Of a DNA stretch of 64,000 bases, positions 2,515 to 27,132 are shown one piece after another. Origin of the DNA: Planctomycetota bacterium (GTDB lineage Bacteria > Planctomycetota > Planctomycetia > Pirellulales > Pirellulaceae). The position numbers and the translations under genes are program-made. The notes beneath the pieces were generated by a model. The model was not told the DNA's origin and made no database searches. It saw only the letters and a program-made list of their open reading frames with translations. Where the stretch lies: assembly GCA_027622275.1 (NCBI GenBank), contig JAQBZB010000010.1:2598-66597 (forward strand). The letters are read 5' to 3'. Every line of letters starts with the position of its first letter. Within the stretch, counting starts at the first letter, position 1.

Positions 2515-4896
2515 ATGACGCTTCGCTCAGGCGTGAAGAGATCGCTCGCAACTCGTCTCGTTGGAACCATCGCACTTGGCCTTCTGTTTGGCGCATCGGC
2601 ACCCGCGCAGCAGCAAGCGCCTGCGATCGGTTACATGTACCCGTCGGGTGGGCAAGCCGGAACCACAGTCGATGTCGTGCTGGGAGGATACGACTGGACG
2701 CCGGACATCGAGTTGTTTGTCCATGATCCTCGGATCGGCCTTGAATTCACTGGATCGCCGGGCCCGGTCATCGTTCCCGAGCCGCCCTACTGGTTCGAGA
2801 AGAAAGCACGCCGCGGCCCATTCCCCTTGCCTCGCGAGACACCGGCCAAGCTGACGATCCCCGCCGATGTGAAGCCGGGCGTTTATCGCTGGCAAGCCGC
2901 GAACGCGAATGGCGCGACTGCCACCGGCCGGTTGATGGTCTCGGCACACCGCGAGGTTCGGGAGCAAGCGGAGCGGACGGAGCCACAAATGTTAGACTCG
3001 CTCCCCGTTATCGTTTGCGGCCAGATCATCAAGATCGAGGAGGTCGATCGCTTTCGTTTCGTCGCGCCGCACGATGGTCCGATCACGTTGTCGCTCGAAG
3101 CGGCCGCAATCGGTTCGCCGCTGACGGCAGGTGTTGAAGTGCGAAACGCAAGTGGGCAACTCGTGGCGGAAGCGACCGACACGGCGGGGGACGATCTTCG
3201 CGTCACCTTCGCCGCCAAACTTGACCAACCCTACGTCGTCAGCATTTTCGACATCGACTTTCGCGGCAACCGGTCGTTTGTCTACCGGATGGCTTTCACG
3301 CCGGGTCCGCAAGTCGTCGCGACGATCCCCGCCGCGGGAAGACGCGGTGAAACTCGCGACGTCGAATTCGTCGGCTACGGAGTTGCCACCGGCGGCGCGA
3401 AGCTTGAATCCCTAACTCGCTCGGTGACGTTTCCCGATGGACCGGCGGACTCGTTCGCCATGCGCCTCGAAACGCCGTTCGGAGTCAGTGAGCCTGTCGC
3501 GCTGTTGCTCAGTGATATCCCAGAAGTCGTCGAGGCGGCGCGTCGCGGTGACGAAGCCATTCCACTTTCGATTCCATCGGCGGTGACGGGCGTGCTCGAT
3601 CAACGCTATGGTGCTGATCGGTATGTTGTTGAGGGCAAGCAGGGCGAGACCTGGGCGATCGAGCTGCGGGCGGAAGCGGTCGGCTCGAAGCTGGATGTCG
3701 CGCTGAGCGTGCTTGATGGACAGGGCAAAGAGCTGAAGCGATCCGACGATCTGACGGGCACGACCGACGCGGGATTGGAGTTTGTCGTACCGGCCGATGG
3801 GAGCTACGAGTTCATCGTCAGCGATTCATCCTTGCAAAGCGGCAACCGTGCCGCGGTCTATCGGCTGGCCGTGCGTCCGGCGGAACTGGGCTTCACGTTG
3901 AGCGGCCCCGAGTTCGTCACGTTACCGCTTGGCGGCAAGGCTTCGTTGGCGATCACGGCAACTCGCGCCGCTGGATTCGCGGAGCCGATCCGCCTGCGGA
4001 TTGAAGGCTTGCCGGTGAGTGTGAGCATTCCGGATGAAACAGTCATCGCCGCCGGGCAGAGCGATGTGAAGATCGAACTTTCCACCGCGGCCGAGGCCGG
4101 AACGGTGGCCGCCAAGCTGCAAGTGGCGGGGCAAGCCCGGATCGGCGAGCGGGATGTGGTGAAGCGACTGGAGCCGGTCTTGTTGGCCGTCACCATGAAT
4201 CCGCCGTTCTCCGTCGATGCGGAAGGCAAGGACGACGTGACCAAGTGGCCGCGCGGCACGACGTTTCCCGGTCCCGTCTTGATTCAGCGGGACGAGGGAT
4301 TCGCCGGCAACATCGTGCTGGAGATGGCTGCCCGGCAGGGGCGTCATCGGCAGGGAATCCGTGGCCCCGAATTGACCGTCCCGCCCGATGTCGATCGCAT
4401 CTTGTACCCGGTCTTTCTCCCCGAGTGGCTCGAGACGACACGCACATCGCGAATGGTCGTCAACGGCGTCGCTCAGGTCGCGGATCCGAAAGGGCGAGTC
4501 CGCTACTTGTCGAGCAAGCTGAAAACCCGCATCGGCTTTCTGCCCACCGGCGCGTTGCTCAAGATCGATTGCGAGGTGCCGGAGATCGAAGCTGCGTCGA
4601 ATCAACCCTTCGACATCCCGTTGACGATCAATCGCGCCAAGAACCTCTTCGAACCGGCACATATCGAACTTGTCGACGACCGCGAGAGCCAGGGACTTCA
4701 CGCTGCCGAGGGACTGACAGTTGCGGGAAGCCAATCGCACGCAGTGCTCTCCGTGACGCCGCTGTTGGCAACCGGCTTCGTTGGCGAGAGGAAGATCACG
4801 ATTCGCGCGACGGTGCTGCAAAACGAACAGTATCCCGTCGTTTCCGAGACGCAAGTGCTGGTGGTGTTCGGCGGCGTGACCGTCGCCGGTCGCTGA
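2515..4896 (+). CDS. Secreted protein with repeated pre-peptidase-C-terminal (PPC)-like beta domains
   Basis: 793-aa ORF with N-terminal signal-like LVGTIALGLLFGASAPAQQ. Repeated segments are of the form ...G(Q/E).....DRF/Y.F/V......L.....(DSSLQSGNRAAVYRL / DFRGNRSFVYRM). Third gene of the DUF1553/DUF1501 cluster. Confidence 0.6.
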   Translation: MTLRSGVKRSLATRLVGTIALGLLFGASAPAQQQAPAIGYMYPSGGQAGTTVDVVLGGYDWTPDIELFVHDPRIGLEFTGSPGPVIVPEPPYWFEKKARRGPFPLPRETPAKLTIPADVKPGVYRWQAANANGATATGRLMVSAHREVREQAERTEPQMLDSLPVIVCGQIIKIEEVDRFRFVAPHDGPITLSLEAAAIGSPLTAGVEVRNASGQLVAEATDTAGDDLRVTFAAKLDQPYVVSIFDIDFRGNRSFVYRMAFTPGPQVVATIPAAGRRGETRDVEFVGYGVATGGAKLESLTRSVTFPDGPADSFAMRLETPFGVSEPVALLLSDIPEVVEAARRGDEAIPLSIPSAVTGVLDQRYGADRYVVEGKQGETWAIELRAEAVGSKLDVALSVLDGQGKELKRSDDLTGTTDAGLEFVVPADGSYEFIVSDSSLQSGNRAAVYRLAVRPAELGFTLSGPEFVTLPLGGKASLAITATRAAGFAEPIRLRIEGLPVSVSIPDETVIAAGQSDVKIELSTAAEAGTVAAKLQVAGQARIGERDVVKRLEPVLLAVTMNPPFSVDAEGKDDVTKWPRGTTFPGPVLIQRDEGFAGNIVLEMAARQGRHRQGIRGPELTVPPDVDRILYPVFLPEWLETTRTSRMVVNGVAQVADPKGRVRYLSSKLKTRIGFLPTGALLKIDCEVPEIEAASNQPFDIPLTINRAKNLFEPAHIELVDDRESQGLHAAEGLTVAGSQSHAVLSVTPLLATGFVGERKITIRATVLQNEQYPVVSETQVLVVFGGVTVAGR

Positions 4897-8157: not shown

Positions 8158-8181
8158 CTCACTGTCCCGAAGGGATGGTGG

Positions 8182-8570
8182 GTAGTAGCCCTGGGCTTCA
8201 GCCCAGGGGTTTGCAGGATGAACGGCACTGAGCCCCGAAGGTGGCGACACAATGAGTTCGCTTTCCCTGGTGTCGCCGCCTTCGGGGCTTCGGAGTACTT
8301 CGTGACACGCTTCCCCGGCCTGAAGGCCGGGGCTACTAGCCCCCGTCGCTTCGCGACTTTGTAAACTGCCTGACGCTGCGGTGTTGCCGGTGCGGCAAGG
8401 TCGCGCTCGGCGAGCGAGACCTACTTTCGAAACAAAGCCTAGTTGGACAGCGCCACTTTCGCACGAACGGCAACAAATACAAGCTCGAAGCGCAAGCGAG
8501 TGTGTTTGCTGTAAGACACCCACTCGCTTGCGCTTCGAGCTTGTATTCCCGGAAAAGTGGCGCTGTCCAA
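8182..8570. repeat. Hairpin-rich intercistronic repeat block (nested palindromes)
   Basis: CCCTGGGCTTCAGCCCAGGG (8189-8208). AGCCCCGAAGGTGGCGACAC / GTGTCGCCGCCTTCGGGGCT (8231-8250 / 8270-8289). CCCCGGCCTGAAGGCCGGGG (8313-8332). A degenerate family-B copy lies at 8398-8424. A long hairpin has perfect 27-bp (8475-8501 / 8521-8547) and 17-bp (8443-8459 / 8554-8570) arms. Confidence 0.9.
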
Positions 8571-22809: not shown

Positions 22810-22948
22810 CCGAAAACAACCTGAGAAGCGGGAGGAGGGTCAATTACCCATCCGATTGCCCGATCGGCCGAGTGACCAACTGGTAGTGTCTTAAAGTTGA
22901 GGGGAGACTTTTAGAGAGCCTCACTTGCGGAGCAATGGCCAACAATCG

Positions 22949-23761
22949 TTAAGGCCTTTTCTTCTTTTTGTCGATCGCCTTCATTTGCTTGTTGGTGCCC
23001 TTCAGTTTCTTTTTGACCTGCCCAAGATTCTCTGCCGCCGGTAAGTCTTCTGGGCTTACTCCGCCAAGTTCCTGCATCGTCTTTCGGACCTTTTTTCCAA
23101 CTTCATGCGCGGCACTCTCCAAGTTTCGCTGTCCTCGAATGGCCTCGCGATCGATCTTTTCGGCAGTCTGTGTTATGCGAAACAAGTGTGCAGCGAGTTC
23201 TGCCTTTCCCATGCGATCAATCAGCTTATCGCTCTTACTAAGGCCCTTGTAAGTCATGAGCCGCTGTAGGGTCATGTTGTACATTCCCATGTAGCCCTTG
23301 TTCTGAAAGAAAGCATAGTTTGTGACCCCATGCGATTTTGCAGTGCTGGCCAATGTCTTCTGGCCGTCCGTGACTTCGTCTCGAATCAAGAGCCTATCGA
23401 TCGCGTCGGCATGTTCCAGCGAGTTCTCAAACGTCTGGGCGAGCGTGGCGAAGTAGGCTTGCGCTGACGCCACTTCAGGTTTCTTTGTGTCGCCATTCAT
23501 CGCGACGAGATAGCAACCGAAGCGGGTAATAAAATGCTTCCCGTCGGTTTGCCTTAGAAAGTGATCCTCGCAGGGGATGTTTAACGAAAGGCACGCTTGC
23601 TTTGCTCGATTGATTGCCTTCTTGAACGACTGCTCCGTCTCGTATCCGAGCGATTGCATCACAACATCTTCGTGCCAATGCGTAGCCCCATTTTCGGTGG
23701 CGAGATCCTCGAAGCTCTTTTTGTCGTCGTCAAAATGGAAAAGTGTATCCGTCATTTCCAT
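22949..23761 (-). CDS. dinD: DNA-damage-inducible protein D homologue
   Basis: Collinear similarity to E. coli DinD as recalled: ...RFGCYLVAMNGD..KP.VA.AQ.YFA...; YAFFQNKGYMGMY; DRMG.AELAAHLFRITQTAEK; VGKKVRKTMQELGG..PEDLP. Confidence 0.85.
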   Translation of the reverse strand: MEMTDTLFHFDDDKKSFEDLATENGATHWHEDVVMQSLGYETEQSFKKAINRAKQACLSLNIPCEDHFLRQTDGKHFITRFGCYLVAMNGDTKKPEVASAQAYFATLAQTFENSLEHADAIDRLLIRDEVTDGQKTLASTAKSHGVTNYAFFQNKGYMGMYNMTLQRLMTYKGLSKSDKLIDRMGKAELAAHLFRITQTAEKIDREAIRGQRNLESAAHEVGKKVRKTMQELGGVSPEDLPAAENLGQVKKKLKGTNKQMKAIDKKKKRP

Positions 23762-23799
23762 GCTCTCCCGTGATGCGAATAACGGGAGATTGTAGCAGA

Positions 23800-24834
23800 T
23801 TATCCGGGTTGATTCAGGACGGATTCAAACAGCTCGTCAAAGCTCCAGACGTGGCCCGCCAATTTCGCCATCATAGCCGCGCTGGGCCGCTTCTCACCAG
23901 ACTTTCCCGGCTTCCGGGTCTGCCAGCAGAAGTTGTAGTAGGCGGCGAACATACCGAAGGCGGCTTCCAGGTTCTCCAGTTTCTTCGAGAAGCACAGCGT
24001 TAGCCGATTCAGCCGCTTCATAAAGACTCGCTGAGTTCCGTTCAATCGTTCGACGTGGCTAGTTCCTATCGTGTAAAGCTCCCGGCCCTCTATGCCTCGG
24101 ATGCCTTCCCGCTTGGTGCCCACCATTTCGTTTGGATCGTACTTCATGGTGGCGTTCTTGTATTCCTTGATGATCGTCCCGTACTTGGCGTAGGGGCCAA
24201 ACGCGAGGTCAACGGCTTCTGGGTACCCAGCCCAACCATCGGTGCTGATTTGAACGATGGCCCGGTAGCCGCCTTTGGCAAATGCGTGGGCATCGCTGGA
24301 ATGCGGAGCCGGTCGGGCCAGCCGCTTTGACACGTCCATTAGAAACCGGCGTGCGTTGTCGGCAGACCGCTTGCCGATCAGGAACGATGGCATCAGCTTG
24401 GTTTGCTGGTCGATGCACGTCCACAAATAAACGTCGCCGATGTCATGACAAGTCGCCTTCTCTTCGATGGTCAACCGAGCTTGCTTCTTAGCCACAAACG
24501 TCCATTGCTCATCGAACTGCAAGTGGGTGAGCTTAAGTCCGTGCATCCGATCGTCAAGGAACTTCCGGCAGGCCGTTCCGAACAGGACGATCAACTTGCA
24601 AAGCGTGTTGCGGTTGATGCCAGTTGTCCGTTCGGTCGCGCGGATCGACATTCCTTCTGTCAACATCCGCAGGGCCAGTTTTGCCTTGGACAGATCAACC
24701 GTCATTTCTCCAAGCGGCTTGGGATCGAAGTCGGTGAAGCAAACTCCGCAGTCCTTGCACGTCCACCGTTGCTGGCCCTTACGATCCTTGCCCTTGCTGG
24801 TCTTTCTCTTGTGCTGGCATGTTGGAGCGATCAT
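23800..24834 (-). CDS. IS1-family DDE transposase (single ORF, N-terminal zinc-finger/HTH)
   Basis: WTCKDCGVCF zinc ribbon. FDEQWTFVAKK, ISTDGWAGYPEA and ERLNGTQRVFMKRLNRLTLCFSKKLENL parallel IS1 InsB motifs (DEqW.fV, TDGW..Y, ER.N...R....RL.RK.L.FSK). Confidence 0.8.
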   Translation of the reverse strand: MIAPTCQHKRKTSKGKDRKGQQRWTCKDCGVCFTDFDPKPLGEMTVDLSKAKLALRMLTEGMSIRATERTTGINRNTLCKLIVLFGTACRKFLDDRMHGLKLTHLQFDEQWTFVAKKQARLTIEEKATCHDIGDVYLWTCIDQQTKLMPSFLIGKRSADNARRFLMDVSKRLARPAPHSSDAHAFAKGGYRAIVQISTDGWAGYPEAVDLAFGPYAKYGTIIKEYKNATMKYDPNEMVGTKREGIRGIEGRELYTIGTSHVERLNGTQRVFMKRLNRLTLCFSKKLENLEAAFGMFAAYYNFCWQTRKPGKSGEKRPSAAMMAKLAGHVWSFDELFESVLNQPG

Positions 24835-24968
24835 TTAAGCGAACCTTCCCAAGTTGGGGCGTTTCGCTTAGAATGCAATTGCTAGGTCGCATCTTGGCGA
24901 AAGCCGAGTGTGATTGATTCCCTGGGGCCGTTGACGCGGCCTCAGGGAACGCTTTTGACGAGGATAAA

Positions 24969-25052
24969 CGGAAGGTAGGGGAATCGAACCCATCCCTGGC
25001 AGGACTCTGGCGTTTATAAGACGCCCCGCTGCACCAGCAGCAACTACCTCCC
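24969..25052 (-). tRNA. Non-canonical tRNA-like gene, 9/3 acceptor/T-stem architecture (allo-tRNA-like), anticodon UAU, long variable arm
   Basis: Fold done by hand on the minus strand. Acceptor stem is 9 bp (1-9/75-83, one G-U), followed by a 1-nt linker. D stem is 6 bp (TGCTGC/GCAGCG) with the 4-nt loop TGGT. Anticodon stem is GGCGT/ACGCC with loop CTTATAA. The variable arm is 17 nt with a 4-bp stem. T stem is GGG/CCC with loop TTCGATT. The discriminator is G and there is no encoded CCA. The 7/5 canonical fold leaves a T-C mismatch and extra linker bases. Confidence 0.7.
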
Positions 25053-25354
25053 GGTTCTAAAGAGGTCGCCTTGCCCCAGTCGGGCCGCTCGGTTGCAAGT
25101 ATGCGAGCCCGCTGGGACTGACCTTCTGCGCTCTGCCTAACGGCGACCACTTCGACAGAGCTTGAACTTCTTCTCATTTCCTCAGCCTCCAGTACGATTA
25201 CTTACTTCCGACGTCAGGCATTATCGCCGCCTAGGCAAAGCCGGTATCTACGCATTTTTTTACCACTTGTCCTTGTAGTGTAATGCTGGTGCAGTATTAA
25301 AGTAGAAGTAGAGTAGCAGTAAAACAGAAATAGATTAACTAAGGAGATTGCAAG

Positions 25355-26188
25355 ATGGCCAAAAGTGGTGCGCAAGCGAAAGGCCCCAAGCCAACGAGGC
25401 AACGAAGTCCCAATTATCCAGCCATAGGATTAAGGACAGCGGTTGAAAAGGTGAAGTTGCTCTACGACAAGTATGGCCGGGAGAAGGTGCCATTGAAGCT
25501 GGCGTGCGAAGCAATGGGACACAAAACACTGAATAGCTTGTCTCAACAGTATGTGGCGGCATTAAAGGCGTACTCACTGATTCTGACTTATGGCACTGGA
25601 GATGAGAGGAGGGCGGCTGTCAGTGAAGCTGCCGAGCGGATTGTCAGGAATGCACCAAATCGTGCCGAACTCCTGAAAACTGCTGCTGTGGCACCGACAA
25701 TTCATGCCGAAGTCTGGGACCACTACGAAGGTCGTGGATTGCCACACGATGACCTCCTAAAGCAGTATCTTGTGTGGGATCGTCCCGATGGCTCTCGATT
25801 CACTGAAGATGCTGTAGACGGATTTATTGAGCGGTTTAGGGACACTTTGGACTTCTCAGAAGTGGCTCCAGGTGATAAACTTTCAGATAATGAGCAAGTT
25901 GATTCAGGCGATGAGAATGGTAATGGCTGCGATAGTGGTGGTGAAGATGAAGAAACAAACCAACACATTGGTGCTCCAAAGAACAAACGTCAGGAGCGAC
26001 GGCAAGTGATAGAAGGCGTAAAAGAAGCGACGTATCCAATGGCAACCGGGGAGATTTTCCTTCAGTGGCCATGTCGGATTTCGGCTGAAGAGGCCGAAGA
26101 TATTGTTGACTGGCTCGCGATCATGACTCGCAAGATCAAACGCTCGGTTGTGTCTGACGAGCCGGAAGAGCCGGAAGGCGACAGTTAG
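25355..26188 (+). CDS. Hypothetical protein (acidic C-terminal half), transposon passenger
   Basis: AAGGAG lies 7 nt upstream of the ATG and an AT-rich leader precedes it. 277-aa ORF with no antisense competitor of comparable quality. No family recognised. Confidence 0.6.
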   Translation: MAKSGAQAKGPKPTRQRSPNYPAIGLRTAVEKVKLLYDKYGREKVPLKLACEAMGHKTLNSLSQQYVAALKAYSLILTYGTGDERRAAVSEAAERIVRNAPNRAELLKTAAVAPTIHAEVWDHYEGRGLPHDDLLKQYLVWDRPDGSRFTEDAVDGFIERFRDTLDFSEVAPGDKLSDNEQVDSGDENGNGCDSGGEDEETNQHIGAPKNKRQERRQVIEGVKEATYPMATGEIFLQWPCRISAEEAEDIVDWLAIMTRKIKRSVVSDEPEEPEGDS

Positions 26189-26344
26189 TCTGCTGTCCAC
26201 TTGCCGTCCGCACCCTTAAACCGCTTCCGGTTTTTCCGCATTCCCCACACCAACGAATCGAGCGCCCCGCTTCGACCCTTGCTACAATGCCCCCATGCCC
26301 AGCGAGCGATGGCTGAGCATGTCGCTTCAAACAAGAGGTCTCAA

Positions 26345-26581
26345 ATGATCGAGGTGCGTAGATTTGACGTTTGTGCGTCTGACGGCACGCGATATGAGCT
26401 GGTCGAATTTGAAGAACGCATAATCACGAGTATCGGCGATTTTCCTCCACAATTCGGCACGCGGTCGCATTTTGCACTTAGTGATGGGACGCCCGCCAGT
26501 CGCAATACAATGTACGACGGCGATGCTGCAACCTATTCGATTCAACTTGAGCACGGAGAGATCATTTTGCGTCCGTGTTGA
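26345..26581 (+). CDS. Small hypothetical protein, transposon passenger
   Basis: AAGAGG lies 8 nt upstream of ATG 26345. The ORF-track start 26201 and ATG 26309 are also possible. No family recognised. Confidence 0.4.
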   Translation: MIEVRRFDVCASDGTRYELVEFEERIITSIGDFPPQFGTRSHFALSDGTPASRNTMYDGDAATYSIQLEHGEIILRPC

Positions 26582-26710
26582 CTCCGAGCGTCTCGCCAAA
26601 TAGCCCCTCAACTGTCTCCCCTCAACTTTAAGACACTACCGACCAACTTGCTCGCTCGGTTGCTGCTGGTTTTCCGTGTACAATTGGTGGTGAGTTGCCA
26701 GGAGATCGGC

Positions 26711-26914
26711 ATGCCCAAGAAGATCCGTGAATTGAAGAGTATGCTTCAGCGAGCGGGCTTCGTAATGCGTGCGGGAAAGGGCAGCCACACGGTCTGGTCA
26801 CATGCCAAGTTGGAAGAGTCGATTACCGTCTCTGGCCGCGATGGCGATGACGCCAAGCCCTATCAGGAAAAGGATGTCCGCCAGATCATCAGGAAAGCGG
26901 AGGAATCCCCATGA
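26711..26914 (+). CDS. hicA: HicA-family mRNA-interferase toxin
   Basis: MPKKIRELKSMLQRAGFVMRAGKGSHTVWSH is the YcfA/HicA signature (KGSH). GGAGA SD. Overlaps hicB by ATGA. Confidence 0.85.
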   Translation: MPKKIRELKSMLQRAGFVMRAGKGSHTVWSHAKLEESITVSGRDGDDAKPYQEKDVRQIIRKAEESP

Positions 26915-27132
26915 CGTCCCGATATCGCATGCTCATCGAGTGGTCTGAGGAAGACCAAGTCTTTGTCGTCACGCTGCCGGAGTTTCCGTGCAATCGAACG
27001 CACGGAGCAACGTACGAAGAAGCGGCCAAGAACGGCAAAGAAGTACTCGAACTGCTGATCGAAACGTGGGAGCAGGATGGCCGCCCGCTGCCTCCGCCCC
27101 AGTTCTTCGTGTCCGACTCCGTTTCGGCATGA
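26911..27132 (+). CDS. hicB: HicB-family antitoxin (UPF0150 fold only, no obvious DNA-binding tail)
   Basis: YRMLIEWSEEDQVFVVTLPEFPCNRTHGATYEEAAKNGKEVLELLIE is typical of the HicB N-domain. Confidence 0.8.
   Translation: MTSRYRMLIEWSEEDQVFVVTLPEFPCNRTHGATYEEAAKNGKEVLELLIETWEQDGRPLPPPQFFVSDSVSA

What the first reader, a model, noticed from the sequence alone, without database searches (positions are those of the whole stretch)
24969..25052. Non-canonical 9/3 'allo-tRNA'-like gene with UAU anticodon carried on a transposon
The only tRNA-like sequence in the window does not fold as a 7/5 cloverleaf without a T-stem mismatch and surplus linker bases. It does fold perfectly with these elements. 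The acceptor stem is 9 bp (GGGAGGTAG / CTACCTTCC, one G-U) and the T stem is 3 bp (GGG/CCC, loop TTCGATT). The D stem is 6 bp with the 4-nt loop TGGT (tRNA-Sec-like). The variable arm is 17 nt and the discriminator is G. Together the long variable arm and G discriminator are the classic SerRS identity set. The anticodon loop CTTATAA gives UAU (reads AUA, an Ile codon), not UCA. tRNAs with 12-bp acceptor branches in 8/4 or 9/3 configuration have been described as rare 'allo-tRNAs' capable of Ser insertion at sense or stop codons (Mukai et al., NAR 2017, from memory). Here such a gene is a passenger of an IS1-family transposon, next to dinD and beside a hicAB module. It could be a mobile mistranslation or regulatory RNA.
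Basis: partly seen in the sequence, partly recalled or inferred. Interest (0 to 1): 0.85.

Follow-up and report, generated by a model that had tools for sequence, protein, structure and literature searches.

The report
Transposon-borne odd tRNA matching its transposase codons
A real, conserved, oddly shaped tRNA gene that reads the rare isoleucine codon AUA sits inside an IS1-type jumping gene of a planctomycete, and the jumping gene's own enzyme keeps that rare codon at two fixed positions, so the tRNA probably controls how the enzyme is made.

Summary
A 9/3 allo-tRNA-like gene with anticodon UAU lies on the minus strand at 25052..24969. It sits inside a 3,759-bp IS1-family transposon (22882-26640) that has perfect 27-bp inverted repeats and an 8-bp target duplication.

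The kind is already published. Mukai et al. [quoted passage not shown]

Three results here go beyond that paper.
- The host is Planctomycota. Of 54 related loci, 29 carry a strong tRNA-like match about 400-500 nt upstream of the transposase on the same strand, and about 12 more carry other scaffolds at that position. Stems covary and 27 of 28 are 9/3.
- Four different scaffolds occur, and all keep UAU.
- The transposase keeps the host-rare codon ATA at two fixed sites near the catalytic Glu (60 ATA against 3 other Ile codons). Synonymous sites are otherwise saturated, and 8 outgroup elements without the tRNA have no ATA there.

Best reading: the tRNA is the element's own decoder of AUA codons that gate transposase synthesis. 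The amino acid it carries is unresolved. The site tolerates only Ile, Val or Ala across the family, which argues against a need for Ser.

The parts
22874..22881 (.). Left copy of the 8-bp target-site duplication, GACCAACT
   Evidence: Identical 8-mer directly flanks both inverted repeats.
22882..22908 (+). Terminal inverted repeat (transposase-distal-gene end), GGTAGTGTCTTAAAGTTGAGGGGAGAC
   Evidence: 100% complementary to 26614-26640. The same sequence ends the elements in L002, L003 and L004.
22949..23761 (-). Cargo gene: DinD-like / Bro-N protein, 270 aa
   Evidence: Pfam Bro-N. NCBIfam DinD 195.7 bits against a cutoff of 242. PADLOC candidate defence family PDC-S13, 265 bits. Absent from relatives L003 and L004, where the repeat follows the transposase directly.
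23800..24834 (-). IS1-family DDE transposase, single ORF, 344 aa, with N-terminal Zn finger
   Evidence: Pfam PF03400. NCBIfam IS1 and the IS1/IS1595 Zn domain. 1,449 homologues at E<1e-5, and the sources name some of them IS1 family transposase.
24067..24069 (-). Conserved AUA codon, Ile256, five residues before the HVE(R) catalytic Glu motif
   Evidence: ATA in 32 of 33 Ile at this alignment column in 36 relatives. 0 of 7 in outgroup elements without the tRNA. Coordinates checked.
24091..24093 (-). Conserved AUA codon, Ile248 (R-G-I motif)
   Evidence: ATA in 28 of 30 Ile at this column. Coordinates checked.
24835..24968 (-). 133-nt spacer between tRNA and transposase start, with a hairpin at about 24909-24947. 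Relatives have about 400 nt here, holding a small convergent RHH/AT-hook gene that this copy lacks.
   Evidence: (I5).
24969..25052 (-). 9/3 allo-tRNA-like gene, anticodon UAU, discriminator G, G3:U70, no encoded CCA
   Evidence: It matches covariance model R1, built only from relatives, at 52 bits, E 2.4e-9.
25355..26188 (+). Cargo ORF of 277 aa, unknown function, divergent from the tRNA
   Evidence: No Pfam, NCBIfam, PADLOC or PHROG hit. Homologues sit at the same relative position in L031, L033 and L093.
26201..26581 (+). Cargo ORF of 126 aa, unknown function
   Evidence: No family hit. No homologue in the fetched loci except the same locus, L001.
26614..26640 (-). Second terminal inverted repeat
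26641..26648 (.). Right copy of the target-site duplication, GACCAACT

Best explanation
The gene encodes a functional, L-shaped, non-canonical (9/3) tRNA that belongs to an IS1-family transposon lineage of Planctomycetota. Its job is to read AUA. In the host, AUA makes up only about 3% of isoleucine codons. The element's transposase nevertheless keeps AUA at two fixed positions (residues 248 and 256 here, with a third nearby in many relatives), a few codons before the catalytic glutamate. Completing an active transposase therefore depends on, or is paced by, the supply of the element's own tRNA(UAU). This is rare-codon gating of the bldA/UUA type, built into a mobile element.

Shown:
- the tRNA-like fold
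- its conservation and covariation
- the invariant anticodon
- the element's boundaries
- site-specific conservation of ATA, and its absence in tRNA-less outgroup elements

Inferred:
- that the RNA is expressed, given a CCA end and charged
- that it decodes these codons
- that this limits or times transposase production. When the tRNA is scarce, stalling at the AUA cluster might give truncated products lacking the catalytic Glu, or might lengthen a co-translational window for binding in cis.

The amino acid carried is not resolved. The decoded site tolerates Ile, Val or Ala. This particular copy has G3:U70 (Ala rule) plus a long variable arm and G73 (Ser rule). Only the anticodon is common to all scaffolds, which would fit recognition by IleRS.
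For: 1. It is an internal part of a recently moved transposon, with perfect 27-bp IRs and an 8-bp TSD.
2. Starting from the transposase, a scan of one genome per species gave 54 loci. Model R1 found a tRNA-like element in 29 sources above 50 bits (27 relative loci, the window and L003), always on the transposase strand. In loci that keep a full-length transposase it lies about 400-500 nt upstream of the start. Other scaffolds occupy the same spot in about 12 more loci.
3. Stems covary. On a MAFFT alignment, 16 of 25 pairs have changes on both sides, 93.7% of cells are paired against 47-60% in slid controls, and 0 of 500 shuffles reach the observed values. 27 of 28 are 9/3, with two G:C->U:A swaps at the ninth pair. 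The T-loop 54:58 pair swaps U:A->A:U in 7 loci.
4. Anticodon UAU, with A37 in all 29 strong matches and G37 in at least one degraded copy (L036), is kept across four scaffolds, while positions 32 and 38 vary, as in real tRNAs.
5. Codons. At the two columns, ATA 60 against other Ile codons 3. At 17 other Ile columns, ATA 40 against 316, and 13 of those columns have none. Fourfold sites are saturated (pairwise identity 0.449) and protein identity goes down to 57%. Every other highly conserved codon is a GC-preferred one.
6. Host usage of ATA is 22 of 699 Ile codons.
7. More distant tRNA-bearing elements found from the tRNA side keep ATA at both sites down to 42% protein identity.
8. Eight outgroup IS1-like elements without the tRNA have ATC x5, ATT x2 and ACC x1 at the equivalent site.
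9. The one minimal in-group element with no tRNA (L019) has no ATA codon at all.
Against: - No expression, CCA or charging data exist.
- Mukai et al. found six UAU->CUA variants inactive in an E. coli Ser146 CAT assay. That assay could not detect an anticodon-dependent identity such as Ile.
- The link is not one-to-one. L002, L026 and L042 keep ATA without a detectable tRNA nearby; L026 shares a genome with a tRNA-bearing copy. L014, L068, L101 and L083 have the tRNA but Val, Ile(ATT) or Ala at column 269.
- The Fisher test is not corrected for phylogeny.
- The preceding Thr codon ACG is also conserved (29 of 31), so a nucleotide-level constraint at that one site is not excluded.
- Why an element would keep both a handicap codon and its cure is explained only by analogy.
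Confidence: 0.5

Rival explanations
1. Recoding or mistranslation tRNA. The tRNA is charged by SerRS, or in this copy by AlaRS through G3:U70. It inserts Ser or Ala at AUA, either across the proteome as a toxic or regulatory mistranslation device, or specifically to make a variant (active or inhibitory) form of the transposase.
For: - The long variable arm plus G73 is the SerRS set.
- G3:U70 is present in the window copy.
- Other allo-tRNAs insert Ser or Ala in E. coli, and two UAU-derived variants were lethal (PMC5389517; PMC7609411).
- Type iii relatives look like ordinary class-II tRNA-Ser with a UAU anticodon.
- AUA is rare enough in the host (3% of Ile codons) for proteome-wide damage to be small.
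- Ala is among the residues tolerated at the decoded site.
Against: - None of six UAU->CUA variants gave Ser insertion.
- At the column-269 site, 124 distant homologues have I 71, A 28, V 24, F 1 and never S or T.
- tRNA-less relatives replace ATA by ATC, ATT, GTC or ATG, not by Ser codons.
- Type iv scaffolds lack a variable arm and have A73.
- G3:U70 is unique to this copy. Relatives have A3-U70.
Confidence: 0.2
2. General codon-usage helper, as with phage tRNAs. The element is less GC-rich than its host and carries a tRNA(UAU) simply to help translate all its AUA-containing genes, with no specific gating of the transposase.
For: - Element GC is 52.7% against 59% for the window.
- Every ORF of the element has one or two ATA codons.
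- Deletion derivatives that keep the tRNA but not the transposase exist (L047, L054, L055).
Against: A helper tRNA would relax selection against ATA everywhere. It would not fix ATA at about 95% at two columns while leaving 13 other Ile columns without a single ATA. Cargo differs between copies while the tRNA-transposase pair persists.
Confidence: 0.12
3. A structured cis element rather than a decoder. The tRNA-like fold would serve as an RNase P/Z processing signal, as a terminator for the convergent small RHH gene, or as a protein- or DNA-binding RNA partner of the transposase.
For: In most relatives the stop codon of a conserved small RHH/AT-hook ORF lies 1-3 nt from the tRNA's 3' end on the opposite strand. 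The tRNA sits at a fixed place relative to the transposase promoter region.
Against: - The window copy has lost the RHH gene but keeps an intact tRNA.
- A terminator or processing signal does not need an invariant U33-UAU-A37 loop, a G18G19/T-loop elbow, or a covarying 54:58 pair.
- It does not explain the matching codon conservation.
Confidence: 0.1
4. Decaying tRNA pseudogene or captured fragment with no function.
For: Rfam scores fall just under the tRNA-Sec threshold. Mukai et al. describe a disrupted UAU pseudogene in Edaphobacter C40. Some copies here are damaged (L030 is 3'-truncated; L036 has G37 beside a frameshifted transposase).
Against: Compensatory changes occur in every helix, and the anticodon is invariant across transposases that differ by up to 43% in protein sequence and have saturated synonymous sites.
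Confidence: 0.03

Closest known systems
allo-tRNA(UAU) group of Mukai et al., Nucleic Acids Res 2017 (PMC5389517)
   Same: - 12-bp acceptor branch split unconventionally
- long variable arm
- tRNA-Sec-like D arm
- G73
- UAU anticodon
- five-helix variants
- neighbourhood of transposon genes and toxin-antitoxin modules
- detection as near-threshold hits of the tRNA-Sec covariance model
   Different: - The paper's text lists UAU among the predominant anticodons. It names only Arg, Leu and UAA anticodons for 9/3 species, and a later review counts UAU among the 8/4 species. Here 27 of 28 are 9/3.
- The paper assigns hosts mainly to Acidobacteria. Here 53 of 54 genome loci are Planctomycetota, some on megabase contigs.
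- The paper left function open. Here the gene is placed inside a delimited IS1-family element and tied to conserved AUA codons in its transposase.
bldA tRNA-Leu(UAA) and TTA-codon control in Streptomyces (from established knowledge, not tested here)
   Same: In a GC-rich genome, a very rare codon is kept at particular positions of particular genes. A dedicated tRNA's availability decides whether those genes are translated.
   Different: bldA is a chromosomal, canonical tRNA governing many developmental genes. Here the tRNA is non-canonical, travels with the single gene it appears to serve, and dependence has not been shown experimentally.
tRNA genes carried by phages and other mobile elements to offset codon-usage mismatch (established knowledge)
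   Same: A mobile element supplies a decoder for a codon that is rare in the host.
   Different: Phage tRNAs are normally canonical and match overall codon usage. Here the codon is fixed at specific sites, the scaffold is unconventional and interchangeable, and the carrier is an insertion sequence.
IS1 family insertion sequences (single-ORF subgroup)
   Same: DDE_Tnp_IS1 domain, N-terminal zinc finger, terminal repeats beginning GGT, 8-bp target duplication.
   Different: Classical IS1 controls transposase level by a programmed -1 frameshift between insA and insB. This lineage has one ORF, a small divergent RHH/AT-hook gene in most copies, variable cargo, and the tRNA gene. It scores below NCBIfam's IS1 equivalog cutoff (72 against 100).
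Bacterial tRNA-Sec (Rfam RF01852)
   Same: Extended acceptor stem, 6-bp D stem with tetraloop, long variable arm. It is the best-scoring Rfam family (46.8 bits).
   Different: The anticodon is UAU, not UCA. The split is 9/3 rather than 8/5. The score is just under the gathering threshold. There is no selenoprotein context.

Membership tests
allo-tRNA (Mukai et al. 2017) | 12-bp acceptor branch in 9/3 or 8/4 configuration instead of 7/5 | tested here: met
   9-bp acceptor plus 3-bp T stem. 9/3 is 8 kcal/mol better than 7/5. 27 of 28 relatives are 9/3, with compensatory changes at pair 9.
allo-tRNA (Mukai et al. 2017) | Long variable arm and tRNA-Sec-like D arm (long stem, tetraloop) | tested here: met
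   17-nt variable region with a 5-bp hairpin. D stem of 5-6 bp with loop UGGU.
allo-tRNA (Mukai et al. 2017) | Discriminator G73 or U73 with a non-serine anticodon | tested here: met
   G73 and anticodon UAU.
allo-tRNA (Mukai et al. 2017) | Aminoacylation by SerRS (or AlaRS) and use on the ribosome | not testable with these tools
   Published tests of six UAU-type species were negative in E. coli after an anticodon change. No data exist for this copy.
Canonical bacterial tRNA-Ile(UAU) | 7/5 cloverleaf, short variable loop, A73 | tested here: not met
   9/3 fold, 17-nt variable arm, G73. ARAGORN's 'tRNA-Ile' label rests on the anticodon only.
tRNA-Sec (RF01852) | Score at or above the Rfam gathering threshold, and UCA anticodon | tested here: not met
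   46.8 bits against 47. Anticodon UAU.
IS1 family transposon | DDE_Tnp_IS1 catalytic domain with N-terminal zinc finger | tested here: met
   PF03400 at 26.9 bits against 24.1. NCBIfam IS1 E 4.6e-20 but below the equivalog cutoff. IS1/IS1595 Zn domain at 23.1 bits against 28. CxxC...CxxC is visible in the sequence.
IS1 family transposon | Terminal inverted repeats and short target-site duplication | tested here: met
   27-bp perfect IRs starting GGTAGTG, and the 8-bp duplication GACCAACT.
IS1 family transposon | insA/insB organisation with programmed -1 frameshift (classical IS1) | tested here: not met
   A single uninterrupted 344-aa ORF here and in 36 relatives.
Rare-codon / dedicated-tRNA gating (bldA type) | The codon is rare in the host yet conserved at specific positions of the controlled gene | tested here: met
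   ATA is 3.1% of host Ile codons. It makes up 60 of 63 Ile codons at two transposase columns against 40 of 356 elsewhere, and is absent at that site in 8 outgroup elements.
Rare-codon / dedicated-tRNA gating (bldA type) | Expression of the gene depends on the tRNA | not testable with these tools
   Needs genetics or reporter assays.

The most novel reading that the evidence does not exclude
An insertion sequence runs a private piece of genetic code. It carries its own non-canonical tRNA, and the amino acid that tRNA delivers at AUA is not isoleucine (Ser, or Ala in this G3:U70 copy). The active (or the inhibitory) form of the transposase is then made only when the element's tRNA decodes two fixed AUA codons next to the catalytic glutamate. 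This would be a decoding-level switch that replaces the frameshift control of classical IS1. A class-II tRNA(UAC) sits in the same position in an acidobacterial IS1-like element (L180), which hints that the principle may recur with other codons.
Probability: 0.15. Interest if true: 0.9.

Novelty: new variant of a known kind. Interest (0 to 1): 0.66.

Why it matters
Allo-tRNA(UAU) is the largest group of the non-canonical 'allo-tRNAs', and its function has been open since 2017. The only published functional test was negative, and the only lead was a vague association with mobile elements.

Three results turn that question into a concrete, testable hypothesis:
- the gene is placed inside a defined IS1-family transposon lineage
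- the anticodon survives four changes of scaffold
- the partner transposase keeps the matching rare codon at fixed positions, and loses it where the tRNA is absent

The direct experiments are to delete the tRNA or to recode two codons. If the hypothesis is right, this is a new way for an insertion sequence to control its transposase. It would also be a natural example of a mobile element carrying a dedicated codon-tRNA pair, which is of interest for genetic-code engineering, where 9/3 allo-tRNAs are already used as chassis. The result also moves the main known host range of this tRNA group to Planctomycetota.

Tried and rejected
- The short inverted repeat I4 (23720-23735 / 24953-24968), which touches the tRNA's 3' end, was considered as an element boundary. 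I rejected it because one arm lies inside the DinD-like ORF and the true 27-bp repeats are elsewhere.
- The 132-aa ORF 24779-25177, which overlaps the tRNA and is called as a gene in a public assembly, has no family hit and no conserved homologue. I treat it as an annotation artefact.
- A partial Hammerhead_II match at 24850-24869 (13 bits, E 5.7) is noise.
- The tRNA as an integration target or att remnant is rejected. It lies 1.6-2.1 kb inside both ends.
- A full-sensitivity model search of 11 loci without a hit found nothing above chance. Three of them turned out by eye to hold a different, roughly 67-nt tRNA-like scaffold with a UUAUA loop at the expected place. These remain candidates only.
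- I tested whether the L180 tRNA(UAC) is matched by conserved GUA codons. Its transposase has GTA at the Val before the catalytic Glu, but a tRNA-less relative (L192) does too, so the result is inconclusive.
- I looked for conserved ATA codons in the small RHH gene and found none.
- The motif CGAACC was examined as a shared operator of tRNA and transposase. It occurs upstream of the tRNA in 13 loci but not consistently near the transposase start.
- Literature searches for allo-tRNA + transposase, for transposase + AUA codon + tRNA, and for IS1 family + tRNA-like returned nothing relevant.
- No supplementary files of the founding paper were available.
- PADLOC and PHROGs gave nothing for the two unknown cargo ORFs.
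Full report
**1. What is in the sequence**

The window holds exactly one tRNA-like gene by ARAGORN: tRNA-Ile(tat) at 24968-25053 on the minus strand.

Read on that strand, it has these features:
- a 9-bp acceptor stem, GGGAGGUAG/CUACCUUCC, whose only wobble pair is G3.U70
- a two-base linker
- a 5-bp D stem (6 bp with a U.G pair) closed by UGGU
- a 5-bp anticodon stem with loop CUUAUAA
- a 17-nt variable region forming a 5-bp hairpin
- a 3-bp T stem, GGG/CCC, with loop UUCGAUU
- discriminator G
- no encoded CCA

The unconstrained minimum-energy fold is this structure (-40.4 kcal/mol, z = -3.0). Scoring explicit alternatives gives 9/3 -38.8, 8/3 -36.2, 7/3 -34.3 and 7/5 with its U.C mismatch -30.6 kcal/mol.

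At Rfam's gathering thresholds nothing is reported here. With E-value reporting, the best family is tRNA-Sec at 46.8 bits against a threshold of 47, aligned with a 9-bp acceptor and a 6-bp D stem. It omitted the strand and the position of the G.U pair.

**2. The element that carries it**

A perfect 27-bp inverted repeat, GGTAGTGTCTTAAAGTTGAGGGGAGAC, sits at 22882-22908 and 26614-26640. Both copies are flanked by the same 8-mer, GACCAACT. This delimits a 3,759-bp transposon with a fresh target-site duplication.

From one end to the other it contains:
- a DinD-like/Bro-N gene at 23761..22949. This gene also matches the candidate defence family PDC-S13.
- a single-ORF IS1-family transposase with a zinc finger at 24834..23800
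- a 133-nt spacer
- the tRNA gene
- two divergent ORFs of unknown function at 25355-26188 and 26201-26581

The hicA/hicB pair (26648-27132) begins right at the duplication and lies outside the element.

The exact transposase protein is on record as a hypothetical protein of a Planctomycetota MAG. The DUF1501 neighbour is in keeping with that assignment, from my own knowledge of the family's distribution. The Acido-Lenti-1 RNAs first pointed me towards Acidobacteria and do not support it.

**3. What is already published**

Mukai et al. 2017 defined allo-tRNAs by the 8/4 or 9/3 acceptor branch. They state that the UAU anticodon is among the predominant ones and that allo-tRNA(UAU) is the most abundant group. 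They report cloverleaves 'slightly different' from standard allo-tRNA-Ser and possible five-stem junctions. They describe a UAU pseudogene overlapping a transposon-related ORF in Edaphobacter C40.

They also report that six UAU species converted to CUA did not rescue a Ser146TAG CAT reporter, and that two were lethal. [quoted passage not shown]

A 2020 review repeats this without adding function. Full-text searches linking allo-tRNA to transposases, or transposases to AUA codons and tRNAs, found nothing further. The object is therefore a member of a known kind, and its function is the open question.

**4. Relatives found from the transposase side**

A scan of one genome per species with the transposase returned 54 loci. 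All but one were labelled Planctomycetota (mostly Pirellulales), and several lie on contigs of 0.5-7 Mb.

ARAGORN recognised tRNA-Ile(tat) upstream of the transposase in five of them, and a simple motif search found more. I built a covariance model from 12 of these sequences, excluding the window. It matched 29 sources above 50 bits, every time on the transposase strand. In loci with a full-length transposase the match lies about 400-500 nt before the start. The window scored 52 bits.

Weaker matches, or none, at the same spot turned out to be different scaffolds:
- a canonical-looking 7/5 class-II tRNA with a very long variable arm (six loci)
- a ~67-nt form with a 9/3- or 7/5-type acceptor branch and no D or variable arm (three loci by the model, three more by eye)

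These are documented.

Cargo between the left repeat and the tRNA differs from copy to copy. Examples are a PemK-type toxin in L004 and L015, and homologues of the 277-aa ORF in L031 and L033.

Most copies carry a ~60-aa AT-hook/ribbon-helix-helix-like gene between the tRNA and the transposase, on the opposite strand. Its stop codon lies 1-3 nt from the tRNA's 3' end. The window copy and L003 lack it. In L003 and L004 the right repeat follows the transposase directly.

The tRNA gene is thus the conserved companion of the transposase, not incidental cargo.

**5. Is the RNA under selection?**

Yes. I counted pairs on a MAFFT alignment, not one fitted to the structure. On it 93.7% of cells are paired, against 47-60% when partners are slid. 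Sixteen of 25 pairs have changes on both sides, against 1-6 in the slid controls. No shuffle of 500 reaches the observed values.

Twenty-seven of 28 sequences can only form the ninth acceptor pair (9/3). Two of them changed that pair from G:C to U:A. One sequence is 8/4.

Seven loci have a T loop AUCGUAA in place of UUCGAUU. This swaps the 54:58 pair from U:A to A:U. Such a change makes sense only if the T-loop architecture of a real tRNA is maintained. D loops keep the GG needed for the elbow.

In the anticodon loop, the anticodon UAU is kept in every copy. U33 is kept in all but three copies, which have C33 (L006, L027, L038). A37 is present in all 29 strong matches, with G37 in at least one degraded copy. 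Positions 32 and 38 vary. That is how decoding tRNAs behave.

**6. The matching codons**

I aligned 36 full-length transposase ORFs (mean protein identity 71%, minimum 57%). ATA codons pile up at two columns:
- In the motif R-G-I (window residue 248), 28 of 30 Ile codons are ATA.
- In R-T-I-C-T-S-H-V-E-R (window residue 256, five residues before the presumed catalytic Glu), 32 of 33 are ATA.

Together that is 60 ATA against 3 other Ile codons. The 17 other Ile columns have 40 ATA against 316, and 13 of them contain no ATA at all. The uncorrected Fisher p is about 1e-41.

Synonymous sites are saturated, with a pairwise identity of 0.449 at fourfold positions. Every other strongly conserved codon is a GC-preferred one. 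In 24 long host ORFs of the window, ATA is 22 of 699 Ile codons. The codon conservation holds whichever tRNA scaffold the element has.

**7. Independent checks**

First, a check from the tRNA side. One metagenome scan with a loop-plus-T-arm pattern gave 80 listed loci, of which 20 are this tRNA type by the model. Fifteen of those 20 have at least 700 nt of sequence downstream. Eleven of the 15 carry an IS1-like transposase (35-72% identical), and two more carry the small RHH gene. Transposases down to 42% identity keep ATA at both sites (L071, L067, L093, L082, L072). L101, L068 and L083 do not keep it at one or both sites.

Second, an outgroup. A profile of distant representatives led to a ~315-aa IS1-like clade whose named members are Pyrinomonadaceae (Acidobacteriota). 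DNA for eight distinct elements showed no tRNA(UAU). At the equivalent Ile they have ATC five times, ATT twice and ACC once, with no ATA.

Third, a natural control within the in-group. The minimal element L019 has no tRNA and no RHH gene, and it has no ATA codon anywhere in its transposase.

Exceptions exist. L002, L026 and L042 keep ATA without a nearby tRNA; L026 shares its genome with a tRNA-bearing copy.

**8. Which amino acid?**

This is unresolved. Three rules point in different directions:
- The long variable arm and G73 suggest Ser.
- The window copy's G3:U70 suggests Ala. That pair is absent from relatives.
- The only feature shared by all scaffolds is the anticodon, which is what IleRS reads (established knowledge).

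At the residue-256 site, 124 distant homologues have I 71, A 28, V 24 and F 1, never S or T. Elements that lost ATA use ATC, ATT, GTC or ATG. The enzyme therefore needs a small or hydrophobic residue there. This argues against a requirement for Ser, but it does not exclude Ser or Ala being inserted to make a variant protein.

The published negative assay changed the anticodon and demanded Ser, so it could not have detected Ile identity.

**9. Interpretation**

The best-supported account is that this is a working tRNA that the transposon carries in order to read its own conserved AUA codons. Translation of the catalytic end of the transposase is then gated or paced by the element's tRNA. The logic is that of bldA and TTA codons in Streptomyces, and the role is comparable to the frameshift that limits transposase in classical IS1. 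Both comparisons are from established knowledge and are analogies, not tests.

What happens when the tRNA is scarce is inference. Possibilities are stalling, truncated inhibitor-like products, or a longer window for co-translational binding in cis.

The rivals, in order of remaining plausibility, are:
1. a Ser/Ala recoder
2. a general codon-usage helper
3. a structural cis element
4. a dead pseudogene

**10. Verdict**

The object itself is a new member of a published class, with a new host phylum and a 9/3+UAU combination that the founding paper's text does not list among 9/3 species.

The system-level pattern has not, as far as the searchable literature shows, been described. It consists of a conserved place in an IS1-type element, interchangeable scaffolds with an invariant anticodon, and site-specific conservation of the cognate rare codon that is absent from tRNA-less relatives. 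It makes an open question experimentally tractable.

Noticed in passing
window 8163-8208 (-) and 8313-8358 (+): Two Acido-Lenti-1 RNA matches (38.4 and 42.4 bits, both above the gathering score of 37) in inverted orientation about 100 nt apart, in what is a Planctomycetota contig.
   Followed up: no
window 22949-23761 (-): The DinD-like/Bro-N cargo gene of the transposon matches the PADLOC candidate anti-phage family PDC-S13 at 265 bits and PHROG 8036 at 274 bits. The element may therefore be moving a defence-related gene.
   Followed up: partly
L004 3614-3796 (-) and the same position in at least 22 other loci; absent from the window: A conserved ~60-aa ORF with an N-terminal RGRPPK AT-hook and an RHH-like core lies between the tRNA and the transposase on the opposite strand. 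Its stop codon is 1-3 nt from the tRNA's 3' end. It is probably the element's regulator. The window copy has lost it (spacer 133 nt against about 400 nt).
   Followed up: partly
L180 2778-2872 (+), identical in L184: An acidobacterial-type IS1-like element from peat metagenomes has a 95-nt class-II 7/5 tRNA-like gene about 130 nt upstream of its transposase, on the same strand. The anticodon is UAC (Val, GUA), with G73 and an encoded CCA. Its transposase has GTA at the Val before the catalytic Glu, but so does a tRNA-less relative.
   Followed up: partly
L054 682-773 and L055 3674-3765 (same MAG); L047 2332-2424: Deletion derivatives keep an intact tRNA(UAU) next to only the last 40-85 codons of the transposase. 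Two copies in one genome have an identical tRNA sequence and the same remnant, suggesting a non-autonomous element that still spreads the tRNA.
   Followed up: no
L006 5374-5449 (+) and L039 6800-6873 (+): A canonical tRNA-Thr(CGU) lies downstream of the transposase. In L006 it may fall before the right inverted repeat (about 6092). The Thr codon just before the conserved ATA is ACG in 29 of 31 relatives. This may be coincidence or a second matched pair.
   Followed up: no
55-90 nt upstream of the tRNA in 13 loci (e.g. L004, L009, L017, L041); window 24841-24846, opposite orientation, 11 nt before the transposase start: A recurrent CGAACC (often GCGAACC) motif. It could be an ECF-type -35 box or an operator.
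   Followed up: partly
window ~25070-25115 (-), L031 ~3400-3470: A hairpin plus the GGCAAGGCGA box just upstream of the tRNA is shared by the window and L031. The two copies carry homologues of the 277-aa ORF divergently upstream. L033, the third locus with that ORF, has a loosely similar upstream stretch, but the hairpin was not examined there.
   Followed up: no
window 24779-25177 (-): A 132-aa ORF that swallows the whole tRNA gene is called as a protein-coding gene in a public assembly of the same locus (L001 3414-3812). It has no homologues and is probably an annotation artefact. It recalls the 'ORF overlapping the pseudogene' reported for Edaphobacter C40.
   Followed up: yes
L007, L016, L027, L029, L033, L044, L046 (T loops): The T loop is AUCGUAA (UCGUAA in L016) in place of UUCGAUU, swapping the 54:58 pair from U:A to A:U. 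This is an unusual but compensated T-loop variant.
   Followed up: partly
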